A stretch of DNA of 64,000 nt from Candidatus Heimdallarchaeota archaeon (GTDB taxonomy: Archaea > Asgardarchaeota > Heimdallarchaeia > Heimdallarchaeales > Heimdallarchaeaceae), in NCBI GenBank assembly GCA_030603365.1, contig JAUVXV010000003.1:1-64000 (forward strand), given 5' to 3'. Position numbers and translations under genes: made by a program. Within the stretch, counting starts at the first letter, position 1, and each line of letters opens with the position of its first letter. The notes below the pieces were generated by a model that saw only the letters and a program-made list of their open reading frames with translations, had not been told where the DNA came from and ran no database searches. Shown here in pieces: positions 58,978-62,294 of the stretch.

Positions 58978-59823
58978 ATGAAAAAAATAACTCTGAACTC
59001 TATTTTAGTAATAACGAGTTTAATACTCCTAGGATTAATTAGTGGAAACCTAGTCCAAGGTTTGACAACCATTCCCAATACTGCAGGACCAAATAAACTT
59101 CCAAGAAATCAAGCCGAAACATTAGATTTATGGTTGATACAAGACACGAAAGCTATAGTTAATGAAGACACAGAAATGACCTTTGGTGTTCGAAGTCATG
59201 TTGCCGGTGCAATAGATGTTACACTAAGATTATATGATAATGATCCTCCCTCGGTTGAAATCTACCAAGAAACCATTGGTATGATGGAACTTGCAGAATA
59301 TGAATTCACTTATTATTACAACTTTACCTCTACAGGACAACATCCAATAGTCTTTACTGCAGAGGTGGATGGAGGTGGTGAAAATTGGTTGGAGTACTAT
59401 TATTGGGATGTCTATGAAGATGGATTTTTTGTTCTAACGATTGCTCAAGATACAACTACTTATATTGGAGTTGAGAATAGAATGTACTTCAATGTAACCA
59501 ACTATTATAAAATCGGTAAGAACCTAACTCTTCAAGTTGAAATCTATAATGGAACCTATTCAATAATAATCTATGACAATTGGATACCTTTGGATATCTC
59601 CCAAATTTATAGCTTTGATGCATCATACACATTCGATGATACGGGAAATTACGTTGTGTTGTTCAACGTCACTGAAACGGATGCAGATAACCCGTCATGG
59701 TTAGAATACTGTATGTGGGATGTAATTCCTGTAGTATCTGAATTCTATGGATTTTACATACTTCCCTTATTAATATTCATGATTATACCTACCATGTACA
59801 TACGCAAACGTAAGAAACAATAA
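58978..59823 (+). CDS. Surface protein with two tandem Ig-like domains and a C-terminal sorting-type tail
   Basis: Signal peptide MKKITLNSILV; internal duplication (WLEYYYWDV / WLEYCMWDV); VSEF-TM-RKRKKQ tail. Confidence 0.72.
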   Translation: MKKITLNSILVITSLILLGLISGNLVQGLTTIPNTAGPNKLPRNQAETLDLWLIQDTKAIVNEDTEMTFGVRSHVAGAIDVTLRLYDNDPPSVEIYQETIGMMELAEYEFTYYYNFTSTGQHPIVFTAEVDGGGENWLEYYYWDVYEDGFFVLTIAQDTTTYIGVENRMYFNVTNYYKIGKNLTLQVEIYNGTYSIIIYDNWIPLDISQIYSFDASYTFDDTGNYVVLFNVTETDADNPSWLEYCMWDVIPVVSEFYGFYILPLLIFMIIPTMYIRKRKKQ

Positions 59824-59884
59824 TCAATCTAAACCCACTAATTCCTTTTTTTATTATTTATCATACTTCTTTCCACTCTTTGTC

Positions 59885-59954
59885 TATTTTTGTCCCGAGA
59901 CAAAAATATTTTTAAATGATTAGGTGAATCATTTATTGTCTCGAGACGAAAATA
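59885..59954. promoter_or_regulatory. Pair of palindromic operator/centromere-like sites flanking a TATA-like box and a third inverted repeat
   Basis: TATTTTTGTC-CCGA-GACAAAAATA (59885-59908); TTTTTAAA (59909-59916); TAAATGATT-N5-AATCATTTA (59913-59935); TTGTCTCGAGACGAAAATA (59936-59954). Confidence 0.7.
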
Positions 59955-59965
59955 AGGTGATTGAA

Positions 59966-60835
59966 ATGAATGATAAAGAAAAAAAAGGACCAGGACGACC
60001 CAAAAAATATGCTACAGACGCTGAACGAAAAAAGGCCTATCGTGAGCGCAAGAAGGAAGAACGACAACAATGGGAAAAATCACGAGTTAAACGAATAGTC
60101 GAATTACAAGAAAGAGTTGATAGAATGGAAAAAACTATTGAGACATCAACATACGAAAAAGAAAAAAATAAAGATACTCATGAGCATTTTGTATACCTTG
60201 AGATAAAAGAACAAATCAAAGTTCGTTCAGCTAAATATACTCCATGCGAATTAGCTGAAATGCCACTTGAAGATCTCTTAAGGATTCAAAATACTCTGAA
60301 TTCTAGATATTATGGAAGCTATTATAATCCAATACAAGCAGCATTGGAAACAGCTGTCATGCCCTCAGTTGACCGAGAATTTGATTCACGTAAATCTGAA
60401 CTTGGATTAAAAACTCCTGAAGCGAAGCTAGCAAAGAAGTTAGCTAAAACTAAGGATAGAGCAACTCCCAAGACAGATCAAAAAATCGAGGAATATATAC
60501 AAAAACTCAAAGAAGAAGGTGTTGAATTAACATCTGAAGATGAGCTAGCAATTCGTTCAACAATGGAAAAAAGATCTGATGAAACTAGTAGACCATGGCG
60601 TGCTATAAAATCCCCTTATAGGACAGATCAGTTTATTGATGTTTTTCAAGAATTGATGTTACTCTCCAATGTTCAAGCTGAAATATCTAGTAGAGAACGA
60701 GAATCAAAGCTTGATTCAAGTATTGAAAAACTTGAAAAAAGATTAGAGGATTTGGAAAAAACCATGTCAGATGAGAAAGAGAAATCTGTCAGAGAAAGTT
60801 ATGCTAGACGGAAGGAGAAGAAAGATGGCAGCTGA
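59966..60835 (+). CDS. AT-hook/basic-helix coiled-coil protein, putative DNA-binding partner of actin
   Basis: AGGTGA RBS at 59955 then ATG59966; KKGPGRPKKYATDAERKKAYRERKK; N- and C-terminal heptads; overlaps the actin start by 11 nt. Confidence 0.75.
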   Translation: MNDKEKKGPGRPKKYATDAERKKAYRERKKEERQQWEKSRVKRIVELQERVDRMEKTIETSTYEKEKNKDTHEHFVYLEIKEQIKVRSAKYTPCELAEMPLEDLLRIQNTLNSRYYGSYYNPIQAALETAVMPSVDREFDSRKSELGLKTPEAKLAKKLAKTKDRATPKTDQKIEEYIQKLKEEGVELTSEDELAIRSTMEKRSDETSRPWRAIKSPYRTDQFIDVFQELMLLSNVQAEISSRERESKLDSSIEKLEKRLEDLEKTMSDEKEKSVRESYARRKEKKDGS

Positions 60836-61964
60836 ATCACTCCAGACTAAACCTCTTGTTGTAGATAATGGAACTGGATTTACAAAAAACGGATTTGCAG
60901 GAGAAGATCAACCAAGAAGTGTTTTTCCAACAATTATAGGTTATCCTAAGCAACCGGTTGTAATGCCTGATGTTGAAGGATGGATAAGAGAACACTACAT
61001 TGGTGAAGAAGCAATGAATATGAGAGGTGTTCTCAAGCTAGTTTACCCCATGGAACACGGGCAAGTTAAGGACTGGCAAGCAATGGAAAACATTTGGCAT
61101 TACACGTTCTACAATGATCTAAGAGTTAATCCAAATGAACATCCTATAATGTTAACTGAACCCCCTTTGAATGATAATCGAAACAAGGAAAAGATGGCTG
61201 AGTTAATGTTTGAAATTTTCAATGTTCCAGCTATATATATCTCAATGCAAGCTATACTTTCACTCTATGCATCTGGAAGAACAACTGGACTTGTTGTAGA
61301 TGCAGGAGATGGAGTTATTCATATAGTTCCGGTCTATGAAGGTTTTGCGATATCCCATGCTATACACAGATGCGACATTGGAGGACGAGACATTACTCAT
61401 TATCTGCGAACTTTACTTAAACAACGAGGCTATTCACTGACAACTAGTGCAGAACGAGAGATTGTACGAGATATCAAAGAAAGATTATGTTACATTGCAT
61501 TAGATCCTGAAAAAGAATTAAGATTATCTGAAAGAGTCTCTGGAATGGAAAAGGATTATGTTATGCCTGATGGTGAAAATATAACAATAGGATCAGAACG
61601 ATTTATAGCACCAGAGTTGCTATTCAACCCTGGTGTAATTGGATCAGAAGAAGAACCTTTGGATGAGATAATTTACCGAATGGTACAGAATTGTGATGTT
61701 GATCTACGCAGAGATCTTTTTTCAAATATAGTGCTCTCTGGTGGAACAACAATGTTTCCAGGATTAAAGGAACGGCTACATAAAGAACTAGTTGAACTCG
61801 TTCCAGAAACAACTGAGGTAAAAATAATCTCACCTCCAGAGAGAAGATATTCCGTTTGGATTGGTGGAAGTATTTTAAGCTCTTTGAAAACATTCAATAA
61901 ATTATGGGTTACAAAAAAGGAATATAAAGAAACAGGACCTACAGCAGTTTATCGCTGTATTTAG
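60825..61964 (+). CDS. Actin (Asgard Lokiactin-like, 379 aa)
   Basis: LVVDNGTG, GFAGEDQPRSVFP, YPMEHG, IWHYTFYNDLRV, LTEPPLN, QAILSLYASGRTTG, DAGDG, TTSAEREIVRDIKE, LSGGTTMFPG, PPERRYSVWIGGSIL. AAGGAG RBS at 60812 supports ATG60825. Confidence 0.97.
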   Translation: MAAESLQTKPLVVDNGTGFTKNGFAGEDQPRSVFPTIIGYPKQPVVMPDVEGWIREHYIGEEAMNMRGVLKLVYPMEHGQVKDWQAMENIWHYTFYNDLRVNPNEHPIMLTEPPLNDNRNKEKMAELMFEIFNVPAIYISMQAILSLYASGRTTGLVVDAGDGVIHIVPVYEGFAISHAIHRCDIGGRDITHYLRTLLKQRGYSLTTSAEREIVRDIKERLCYIALDPEKELRLSERVSGMEKDYVMPDGENITIGSERFIAPELLFNPGVIGSEEEPLDEIIYRMVQNCDVDLRRDLFSNIVLSGGTTMFPGLKERLHKELVELVPETTEVKIISPPERRYSVWIGGSILSSLKTFNKLWVTKKEYKETGPTAVYRCI

Positions 61965-62117
61965 ACAGTTTATTCCTTTAAACGCCCACTTTTTTATTTT
62001 TTTAGAAGATTCCTCTTCTTTCTGAAATTATTTGTTCTTCATGGGATTCAAGAGAATTTTTGTTTCCGAAGAGCAAAAGTTATATTTCAATACTTTTACT
62101 ACTAATTTAGTGATAAT

Positions 62118-62294
62118 ATGGTAGTTTATAGACCCGATGCTTTTATCTGTAATAATTGTGGAGAGCGCTTCAACAACGAACAGAAAAAGACCTTAAAAGA
62201 ACAAGTAGATGGAATATTCATCACAAAAACTGTTTGTCCTGAATGTTTATCACCAGATATTAGAACAACAATTACTGGTCATCGGGATGAATAA
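62118..62294 (+). CDS. 58-aa zinc-ribbon protein (not in the ORF track)
   Basis: MVVYRPDAFICNNCGERF...VCPECLSPDI...*; GTGA RBS-like sequence upstream. Confidence 0.65.
   Translation: MVVYRPDAFICNNCGERFNNEQKKTLKEQVDGIFITKTVCPECLSPDIRTTITGHRDE

What the first reader, a model, noticed from the sequence alone, without database searches (positions are those of the whole stretch)
59885..61964. Palindromic site + DNA-binding coiled-coil protein + true actin: a ParMRC-like cassette built on eukaryote-type actin
Seen: paired palindromes, then a gene with an AT-hook/basic-helix N-terminus and coiled coils. Its last 11 nt overlap the start of a complete actin, whose RBS lies inside that gene. The unit is bounded by T-rich tracts. 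Established: type II partition loci combine a cis site, an autoregulating DNA-binding adaptor and an actin-fold filament (ParM), but ParM is very distant from eukaryotic actin, whereas this protein is Lokiactin-like. Inference: this is either an actin-DNA coupling system (segregation or nucleoid positioning) or a transcription factor dedicated to controlling, and possibly sensing, actin. I know of no described Asgard actin operon of this form.
Basis: partly seen in the sequence, partly recalled or inferred. Interest (0 to 1): 0.88.

Follow-up and report, generated by a model that had tools for sequence, protein, structure and literature searches.

The report
Self-regulated DNA-binder plus spare actin
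In a Heimdall-type Asgard archaeon, a helical DNA-binding protein whose two mirror-image sites bracket its own promoter is followed, in what looks like one transcription unit, by a second, fast-evolving and often-lost copy of actin. This gives a testable case of dedicated control of an archaeal cytoskeleton gene, not a plasmid-style DNA-segregation machine.

Summary
Two 22-nt palindromic sites (59887-59908, 59933-59954) bracket a TATA-like box. They precede a 289-aa helical protein (59966-60835), which overlaps a complete actin (60825-61964) by 11 nt.

The sites score 30-32 bits against 17.9 for the next best place in the 3.65-Mb genome. They recur upstream of every homologue in the genus, and upstream of short (~200 aa) relatives in another Heimdall family.

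The actin is not the main Lokiactin, which lies elsewhere and is found in all 31 genomes of the family. It is a faster-evolving paralogue with a proline-bearing D-loop, present in 10 of 25 genus genomes and always next to this protein. It has been deleted at least five times, leaving scars. The DNA-binder stays under purifying selection (dN/dS about 0.2) without it.

Three further deep lineages of the protein also precede an actin.

Best reading: an autoregulated AT-hook plus bZIP-like regulator that sets the expression of an accessory actin. Membership of ParMRC fails on most defining features. Physical actin-DNA coupling remains possible but untested.

The scan found this cassette before on other DNA (e1-5449694, e1-2482448), with the same conclusion.

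The parts
59846..59859 (+). T-rich tract after the upstream membrane-protein gene (stop at 59823); likely the archaeal terminator that bounds the unit on the left
   Evidence: Read directly
59887..59908 (.). Operator site 1: palindrome TTTTTGTCCCGAGACAAAAATA, abutting the upstream edge of the TATA-like box (BRE position)
   Evidence: 31.8 bits; unique in the genome. Conserved in 17 genus loci.
59908..59915 (+). TATA-like box TTTTTAAA (consensus TTTTAWA across species)
   Evidence: Conserved column block between the two sites. That it is a promoter is inferred, not measured.
59933..59954 (.). Operator site 2: palindrome TTATTGTCTCGAGACGAAAATA, covering the expected transcription start about 25 nt after the TATA box
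   Evidence: 29.9 bits. Conserved.
59956..59960 (+). Shine-Dalgarno-like GGTGA, 5 nt before the ATG
   Evidence: GTGA conserved
59966..60835 (+). Gene for the 289-aa regulator (P0001). It has an AT-hook GPGRPKKY and a basic helix DAERKKAYRERKK with a short zipper (residues 18-66). A helical middle domain with the motif ALETAVMPSVDREFDSR follows, then a partly disordered K/E-rich stretch and a long C-terminal helix (221-288).
   Evidence: (no Pfam family). The true start is ATG 59966. The GTG 59924 extension merely translates operator site 2.
60810..60817 (+). GGAAGGAG ribosome-binding site of the actin gene, inside the regulator's last codons
   Evidence: Read directly
60825..61964 (+). Accessory actin (P0002, 379 aa). 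It is a Lokiactin paralogue with D-loop changes Q44P, I46V and T48P relative to the main Lokiactin, and overlaps the regulator gene by 11 nt.
   Evidence: Pfam Actin 434 bits; separate clade, 95/87
61990..62003 (+). T-run TTTTTTATTTTTTT after the actin stop; likely the terminator that bounds the unit on the right. The zinc-ribbon gene at 62118 has its own conserved AAAGTTATATTT box.

Best explanation
This is an old, lineage-restricted two-gene cassette of Heimdallarchaeaceae-type Asgard archaea.

The first gene encodes a dimeric DNA-binding protein. An AT-hook sits on a basic helix that runs into a short leucine-zipper-like coiled coil. Further helical and coiled-coil parts follow.

I infer that the basic helices read the 10-bp core GTCYCGRGAC and that the AT-hooks read the flanking A/T tracts. 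One site abuts the TATA box on the BRE side and the other covers the transcription start. Occupancy should therefore block TBP/TFB or polymerase, so that the protein represses its own promoter.

The only other gene on that transcript is an accessory actin isoform, so its level is set by this regulator. The actin is translated by coupling (11-nt overlap) or from a strong AGGAGG site with a TTG start in relatives.

The accessory actin is dispensable and often lost. The regulator is kept, so it also has a role of its own that is still unknown.

Shown: anatomy, conservation, uniqueness of the sites, paralogy and losses of the actin, and selection on the regulator.
Inferred: DNA binding, repression, co-transcription.
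For: 1. The sites are unique in the genome and lie 12 or more bits above the background.
2. In 25 genus genomes almost all matches to the site sit at the homologue's promoter.
3. The footprint GTCYCGRGACAAAAA-N3-TTTTAWA-N~20-TATTGTCYCGRGAC-SD-ATG holds across proteins only about 50% identical.
4. The same operator and layout occur in three further settings. These are the ~200-aa relatives in another family (L026, L030, L031), the 186-196-aa metagenomic relatives (L087, L088) and the divergent paralogue cassettes (L064, L083).
5. Lineages with a different palindrome also have an altered basic region. Examples are GTAACGTTAC in L022, L023, L084 and L085, and TTTGTAAT-N5-ATTACAAA at G000 C7.
6. 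The N-terminus fits the bZIP register N/D-x7-R-x9-L-x6-I/L. The best solved-structure matches of its profile are bZIP domains aligned in register: 7aw7_D at E 0.005 and Pap1 1gd2 at E 0.07. bZIP_1 gives sub-threshold hits in 9 of 42 members.
7. The actin is a distinct, faster-evolving clade. It is found only next to this gene, in 10 of 10 genomes that have it.
8. Adjacency recurs in four deep lineages of the regulator.
9. The overlap, or the 30-90-nt spacers, leave little room for a separate promoter.
Against: - No binding, footprint or transcript data exist, and no RNA run was listed.
- The bZIP likeness is below curated thresholds. The AlphaFold model is only moderately confident (pLDDT 73) and is a monomer.
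- The match between basic region and operator is not clean. Some relatives with AARKK or RQ variants still have the GTCYCGRGAC-type site.
- A pure 'regulator of the actin' role does not explain two facts. The regulator is kept, with its operators and dN/dS about 0.2, in at least 8 genomes that lack the actin. Short relatives regulate only themselves.
- Loci with the longer 70-90-nt spacers (e.g. L013, with AAATATAAAT) could hold an internal promoter.
Confidence: 0.6

Rival explanations
1. ParR/TubR-like adaptor. The protein marks one chromosomal locus through the paired palindromes and couples it physically to actin filaments, either the accessory actin or, where that is lost, the main Lokiactin. 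The purpose would be DNA positioning or segregation, with autoregulation as a by-product, as in partition loci.
For: - A unique site next to its own gene, an autoregulating site-specific binder and a cytomotive-filament gene are the hallmarks of partition cassettes.
- The order site-adaptor-filament is that of TubZRC (own knowledge).
- Archaeal SegAB likewise has two palindromic sites upstream of the operon (PMC8682754).
- The site is unique in the genome.
- Adjacency to actin is old and recurrent.
- The long forms that accompany actins carry a conserved middle region absent from the stand-alone short forms.
- Retention without the accessory actin could be explained by use of the 83%-identical main actin.
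Against: - The filament gene is lost at least five times while the adaptor persists.
- Short relatives with the same operator have no filament partner.
- There are only two sites and they sit exactly on the core promoter elements.
- The locus is chromosomal, syntenic and not near any Cdc6/Orc1 gene; the nearest is 250 kb away.
- There is no homology to ParM, ParR, TubR or SegB.
Confidence: 0.12
2. Actin-sensing feedback regulator, in the manner of MRTF/SRF. The protein binds monomeric or filamentous actin through its middle or C-terminal part. This changes its DNA binding, so that the cassette tunes accessory-actin output to the state of the actin pool.
For: - Translational coupling gives fixed stoichiometry of the two products.
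- A conserved, long-form-specific middle motif ALE[ST]A[IV]MPSVDREFDSR is under selection.
- Persistence after loss of the accessory actin would fit if the protein also senses the main actin.
Against: - No operator lies at the main actin gene or anywhere else. In actin-less genomes the circuit would therefore control only itself.
- No known actin-binding motif was recognised.
- No interaction evidence of any kind was obtained.
Confidence: 0.13
3. No functional link. The actin duplicate merely landed beside an unrelated autoregulated gene and has its own promoter, so the adjacency is inherited history.
For: - The actin is freely lost without affecting the neighbour.
- The histories of the two genes disagree in places. 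The G027 regulator is 93% identical to that of actin-less G033, yet its actin is sister to the G025 actin.
- Some spacers contain TATA-like runs.
Against: - Adjacency is kept in four lineages whose regulators are only 30-45% identical and whose actins are as low as 38% identical.
- Two of these lineages have an 11-nt gene overlap, and others have spacers of about 35 nt that are too short for a promoter.
- The accessory actin is never found away from this gene.
Confidence: 0.08

Closest known systems
Archaeal promoter-occluding autoregulators (operators over BRE/TATA or the start site, as described for Lrs14, MDR1, Phr and TrmB-type factors; own knowledge)
   Same: Palindromic operators placed on the core promoter elements of the regulator's own gene. 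The first gene of a small operon controls the rest.
   Different: The DNA-binding part is not a helix-turn-helix or ribbon-helix-helix but an AT-hook plus a basic-helix/zipper. The cargo is a cytoskeletal actin. No other target site exists in the genome.
Eukaryotic bZIP factors of the Pap1/Yap type (solved examples 1gd2 and 7aw7)
   Same: Register N/D-x7-R-x9-L-x6-L. The motif A-[FY]-R-E-R-[KR] aligns in register with the profile. The targets are palindromic.
   Different: Only sub-threshold sequence similarity. The zipper has only 2-4 heptads. An AT-hook is fused in front, and a large extra helical and coiled-coil body follows. The 10-bp core with A/T flanks is longer than a bZIP site. The N-terminal motif also occurs in bacterial and phage proteins.
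AmzR, an archaeal zipper-like regulator of Methanosarcina (bioRxiv 10.1101/2025.05.05.652248), and GvpE of haloarchaea (own knowledge)
   Same: Archaeal regulators proposed or shown to bind promoters through paired basic helices resembling bZIP/bHLH.
   Different: AmzR carries PAS-GAF sensor domains and binds methylamines. No sequence relation to this family was found here. The present family has no recognisable ligand domain.
Type II (ParMRC) and type III (TubZRC) partition loci; archaeal SegAB
   Same: A cis site upstream, an autoregulating site-specific binder and a filament- or polymer-forming NTPase in one small operon. SegAB also has two palindromic sites upstream of the operon (PMC8682754).
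   Different: See the membership test. The folds of both proteins and the site architecture differ, the locus is chromosomal and syntenic, and the binder outlives the filament gene.
Lokiactin, the main Asgard actin (PMC9834061)
   Same: 83% identical, with all nucleotide-binding residues kept and the same length.
   Different: A separate clade with branches 10-20 times longer. Nine fixed differences, three of them in the D-loop (two new prolines). Patchy presence and repeated loss.

Membership tests
ParMRC (type II partition) | Filament protein belongs to the ParM/Alp branch of the actin fold | tested here: not met
   Pfam Actin at 434 bits and MreB only 17.9 bits. The tree places it with the Lokiactins.
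ParMRC (type II partition) | Adaptor is a small ribbon-helix-helix ParR dimer | tested here: not met
   The model is all-helical with no strand. There is no ParR or RHH family hit.
ParMRC (type II partition) | Centromere made of arrays of short direct repeats (parC: two blocks of five) | tested here: not met
   There are two palindromes only. No further copies occur nearby or in the genome.
ParMRC (type II partition) | Carried on a plasmid or other separately inherited replicon | tested here: not met
   Conserved chromosomal synteny MBL - regulator - (actin) - Zn-ribbon - orf57 - DUF389 across species. The contig is 365 kb.
ParMRC (type II partition) | Adaptor and filament are inherited and lost together | tested here: not met
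   At least 8 genomes keep the adaptor, at dN/dS about 0.2, after deleting the actin.
ParMRC (type II partition) | Adaptor binds the filament end and the site | not testable with these tools
   This needs biochemistry.
bZIP transcription factors | Basic region with N-x7-R/K followed in register by a heptad Leu/Ile zipper (R-x9-L-x6-L) | tested here: met
   Most family members show N18-x7-R26-x9-L36-x6-I43-x6-I50-x6-L57. P0001 has D18 and a one-residue shift.
bZIP transcription factors | Reaches the curated Pfam bZIP_1/bZIP_2 score | tested here: not met
   bZIP_1 matches 9 of 42 members, with a best E of 0.001, below the gathering score. The best PDB profile match is bZIP 7aw7_D at E 0.005.
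bZIP transcription factors | Binds a short palindrome as a parallel coiled-coil dimer | not testable with these tools
   The operators are palindromic. Dimer-DNA modelling was not available.
Archaeal promoter-occluding autorepressor | Operator overlaps BRE/TATA or the start site of the regulator's own gene | tested here: met
   Site 1 abuts the TATA-like box. Site 2 lies 18-39 nt after it, over the expected start. The arrangement is conserved in 13 aligned species. The promoter elements are inferred from sequence.
Archaeal promoter-occluding autorepressor | The protein binds the operator and lowers transcription | not testable with these tools
   There is only indirect support. Site and basic region change together in three lineages.
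Actin (Lokiactin group) | Full-length actin domain with intact nucleotide-binding motifs, grouping with Lokiactins | tested here: met

The most novel reading that the evidence does not exclude
The cassette is a chromosomal actin-DNA coupling device. The AT-hook/bZIP-like protein marks one locus through its two palindromes and tethers it to filaments of a eukaryote-type actin. This would be a functional analogue of ParR or TubR built on Lokiactin, in the archaeal lineage closest to eukaryotes.
Probability: 0.12. Interest if true: 0.92.

Novelty: new variant of a known kind. Interest (0 to 1): 0.62.

Why it matters
How Asgard archaea control their eukaryote-like actin cytoskeleton is almost unknown. 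Work so far concerns the filaments, profilins and gelsolins.

This locus supplies three things that can be tested at once:
- a defined operator;
- a candidate regulator from an uncharacterised family;
- an actin isoform with a changed D-loop.

The regulator family pairs an AT-hook with a basic-helix/zipper in bZIP register. It therefore bears on whether bZIP-like DNA reading predates eukaryotes.

The repeated loss of the actin shows that isoform diversification of actin, a eukaryotic habit, is under way and reversible in Heimdallarchaeaceae.

Tried and rejected
- Complex prediction of actin with the regulator: no verdict (score 0.23, mark 0.32). Not used as evidence either way.
- RNA runs: none was listed, so co-transcription is untested.
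- Foldseek against the PDB, VIA-align wide (best Z 6.5 on helical hairpins) and the Atlas by features (0.76): no informative match. The fold is not shown to be new.
- Pfam, PHROGs and PDB by sequence for the whole protein: only coiled-coil noise and weak phage families of unknown function.
- Mobile-element origin: viral contigs gave only one 24-residue motif hit, and the synteny is chromosomal. Rejected.
- Origin proximity: the three Cdc6/Orc1 genes lie on other contigs or 250 kb away.
- Search for a wider regulon: nothing above 18 bits in this genome. Extra CG-core matches in the other Heimdall family lie mostly inside coding regions.
- The 38%-identical actins of three sister genera have no such regulator upstream; ABC transporter genes precede them.
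- Literature: no description of an Asgard actin operon or of this family was found.
Full report
OBSERVATION

The region reads as described.
- Two related 22-nt palindromes, TTTTTGTCCCGAGACAAAAATA (59887-59908) and TTATTGTCTCGAGACGAAAATA (59933-59954), lie 46 nt apart. TTTTTAAA lies between them.
- GGTGA precedes ATG 59966. The 289-aa ORF (P0001) ends at 60835.
- The actin ORF (P0002) starts at ATG 60825, an 11-nt overlap. GGAAGGAG lies 8-15 nt upstream, inside the first gene.
- T-runs flank the pair.
- P0002 is a full actin (Pfam Actin 434 bits). P0001 has no Pfam family.

The core GTCYCGRGAC occurs only twice in the 3.65-Mb assembly, both times here. A weight matrix built from the sites of related species scores these at 31.8 and 29.9 bits. 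The next best place scores 17.9, and the reversed genome gives at most 15.

THE PROTEIN FAMILY

Full-length relatives (47-94% identical) come almost only from Heimdallarchaeota metagenomes.
- In 400 genomes of the phylum, full-length copies occur in two genera of one family: 17 of 24 and 2 of 2, plus G022 at a contig end.
- The first ~60 residues also match ~200-aa proteins in two other families, several per genome.
- An exhaustive profile search found only a handful of full-length clusters. It also found a set of 185-200-aa proteins that match at both ends, and many small bacterial-looking proteins that share only the N-terminal motif GRPRK[YW]-x3-AER-x-RAYR-x-RK.
- The window's own genome holds one further short member, at C7:116315-116482.

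The AlphaFold model (pLDDT 73) is all-helical.
- Residues 1-17 are extended and carry the AT-hook GPGRPKKY.
- A helix spans 18-66, followed by a helical middle domain (71-145).
- Residues 146-220 are a poorly ordered stretch.
- A long helix spans 221-288.

The N-terminus fits the bZIP register. Most members show N18-x7-R26-x9-L36-x6-I43-x6-I50-x6-L57. A profile of this part finds bZIP domains as its best solved matches, aligned in register (KAYRERKK against RAFRERRA). These are 7aw7_D at E 0.005, Pap1 1gd2 at E 0.07 and GCN4 at E 0.2-2. Pfam bZIP_1 is hit below threshold by 9 of 42 members. I call the domain bZIP-like, not a proven bZIP.

THE OPERATOR BELONGS TO THE PROTEIN

Upstream of every genus homologue the same footprint appears: GTCYCGRGACAAAAA, 3 nt, TTTTAWA, about 20 variable nt, TATTGTCYCGRGACRAAA, GTGA, ATG. 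It holds across proteins only about 50% identical and regardless of what follows the gene.

In 25 genus genomes nearly all matches to the site lie at this promoter. The same site and layout precede:
- the short relatives in another family (L026, L030, L031);
- two metagenomic short forms (L087, L088);
- the divergent paralogue cassettes (L064, L083).

Where the palindrome differs, the basic region also differs. This is seen in two settings:
- GTAACGTTAC flanks the TATA box in L022, L023, L084 and L085, and the basic region shows an insertion and/or AARQK in place of AERKK.
- TTTGTAAT-N5-ATTACAAA lies at the C7 paralogue, whose basic region is likewise altered.

The correspondence is not perfect, so it is supportive rather than decisive.

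Site 1 abuts the TATA box on the BRE side and site 2 covers the expected start. This is the usual geometry of archaeal repression by promoter occlusion (own knowledge). The flanking A/T tracts are where AT-hooks placed N-terminal of the basic helices would lie (inference).

THE ACTIN

The genome has three actin-family genes: this one, a copy 83% identical at C1:309232-310359 next to a prefoldin-beta-like gene, and an Arp-like one.
- All 31 genomes of the family have the C1 type, which is nearly identical across species.
- Only 10 of 25 genus genomes have the window's type, always directly after the P0001 homologue.
- In a maximum-likelihood tree the linked actins form one clade (95/87). Their terminal branches (0.017-0.094) are about ten or more times longer than those of the main actins in the genus (0-0.006).
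- Even so, they remain 85-93% identical among species whose regulators are only about 50% identical.
- Only nine positions separate the two clades. Three lie in the D-loop: Q44P, I46V and T48P.

This is therefore an accessory isoform, not the main Lokiactin.

LINKAGE AND LOSS

Synteny is MBL-fold gene, regulator, actin or nothing, zinc-ribbon gene, orf57, DUF389. Where the actin is missing, scars remain:
- L006, L007 and L008 share one junction. The ATG is mutated and about 15 nt of the actin 5' end survive.
- L010 and L012 keep about 30 nt.
- L020 keeps the AGGAGG site only.
- The second genus (L022, L023) keeps the first 21 codons fused out of frame to the last 31.
- L098 keeps about 130 disrupted codons.

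That makes at least five junction types.

The regulator stays intact. dN/dS is 0.18-0.24 within the actin-less group at dS up to 0.89, the same as in actin-bearing pairs.

Conversely, the regulator-actin pairing is old.
- A relative of the second genus's orthologue (L085) still has the complete actin, starting 13 nt after the regulator's stop.
- P0056 (37% identical, L084) is followed by an actin with a TTG start.
- A 243-246-aa paralogue type is followed by an actin only 38% identical, again with an 11-nt overlap in G011, G012 and L083. In L099 the same pair is adjacent, but its junction was not read. A GTCYCGRGAC-type operator pair was read upstream in L064 (G012) and L083.

Accessory actins were never seen away from such a gene. 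The 38%-type actins of three other genera are a different matter and have ABC transporter genes upstream.

INTERPRETATION

The data fit an autoregulated regulator whose transcript also carries an accessory actin. The asymmetry is informative. The actin always comes with the regulator, while the regulator often comes without the actin. This suggests that the actin depends on this promoter and perhaps on tight control. It also suggests that the regulator has a further role, as its stand-alone short relatives do.

ParMRC membership fails on fold, site architecture, replicon and co-inheritance. The looser idea that the protein also couples DNA to actin, or senses actin, is not excluded.
- In its favour: the site is unique, the pairing is old, and the long forms carry a conserved middle region (ALETAVMPSVDREFDSR) that the short forms lack.
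- Against it: the losses, the placement of the sites on the core promoter, and the lack of any interaction evidence.

Archaeal SegAB shows that two palindromes upstream of an operon can serve as centromere-like sites (PMC8682754). AmzR shows that archaeal zipper-like DNA binders exist (bioRxiv 10.1101/2025.05.05.652248).

NOVELTY

I found no paper describing this family, its operator or an Asgard actin operon. Earlier notes of this scan describe the same cassette in other genomes, and one follow-up reached the same reading. I re-derived the points here independently.

Noticed in passing
window 59924-59965: The GTG-started 303-aa ORF, and the 302-310-aa database versions of several homologues (P0005-P0012), begin with '..LLSRDENKVI.M'. 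This is simply operator site 2 and the Shine-Dalgarno region translated. The conserved 'extension' is DNA-level conservation and the starts are mis-called.
   Followed up: yes
own genome C7:116315-116482 (minus strand), outside the window: A second, short (~206 aa) family member with an altered basic region (KYARQKAYYERKK). It has its own, different palindrome TTTGTAAT-N5-ATTACAAA upstream of a TATA-like box and is followed by a TPR-repeat gene. TPR neighbours also occur beside short forms in another family (L026, L029).
   Followed up: partly
P0099, P0120, P0134, P0143, P0148, P0165: The N-terminal motif GPGRPRKW-x3-AER-x-RAYR-x-RK heads many small coiled-coil proteins of high-GC, bacterial-looking composition. 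It also matches phage families of unknown function (phrog_6334). P0148 carries three tandem copies at its C-terminus. No Pfam family covers it, so it is an uncharacterised and widespread DNA-binding module.
   Followed up: partly
L083:1-2532: One 5.4-kb metagenomic contig carries the end of a 47%-type actin, then the operator pair, then the 243-aa paralogue, then a 38%-type actin. Actin-family genes cluster around this regulator there.
   Followed up: partly
L065-L068 (genomes G013-G016): Three sister genera have a further divergent actin-family gene (34-39% identical) directly after a pair of ABC-transporter genes. No regulator of this family is present.
   Followed up: no
L005 versus L006 and L035 versus L037: Gene histories disagree. 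The G027 regulator is 93% identical to that of actin-less G033, but the G027 actin is sister to the G025 actin (99/97), and the G025 regulator belongs to the group only ~50% identical to P0001. The actin-less junction is also shared by lineages that bracket an actin-bearing one. This suggests recombination or allele exchange at the locus.
   Followed up: partly
L069 (G040:C391): A third actin, 65% identical to the window's, lies on a 1.6-kb contig of a genome with 8% estimated contamination. It may be another paralogue or foreign DNA.
   Followed up: no
window 59913-59935: The perfect 9-bp inverted repeat TAAATGATT/AATCATTTA between the two operators is not conserved in relatives. The 'one long cruciform' idea has no comparative support.
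   Followed up: yes
L090:1558 (G083:C12): One intergenic copy of the operator, followed by TTTTTATTAA, lies about 110 nt upstream of a PAS-domain gene in another Heimdall family. It is a possible extra target of a short family member.
   Followed up: no
L013-L019, L021, L084: In most species the linked actin starts with TTG after a strong AAAGGAGG site and a 30-90-nt spacer. The 11-nt overlap of the window is shared only with G027 and, independently, with the divergent paralogue cassette.
   Followed up: yes
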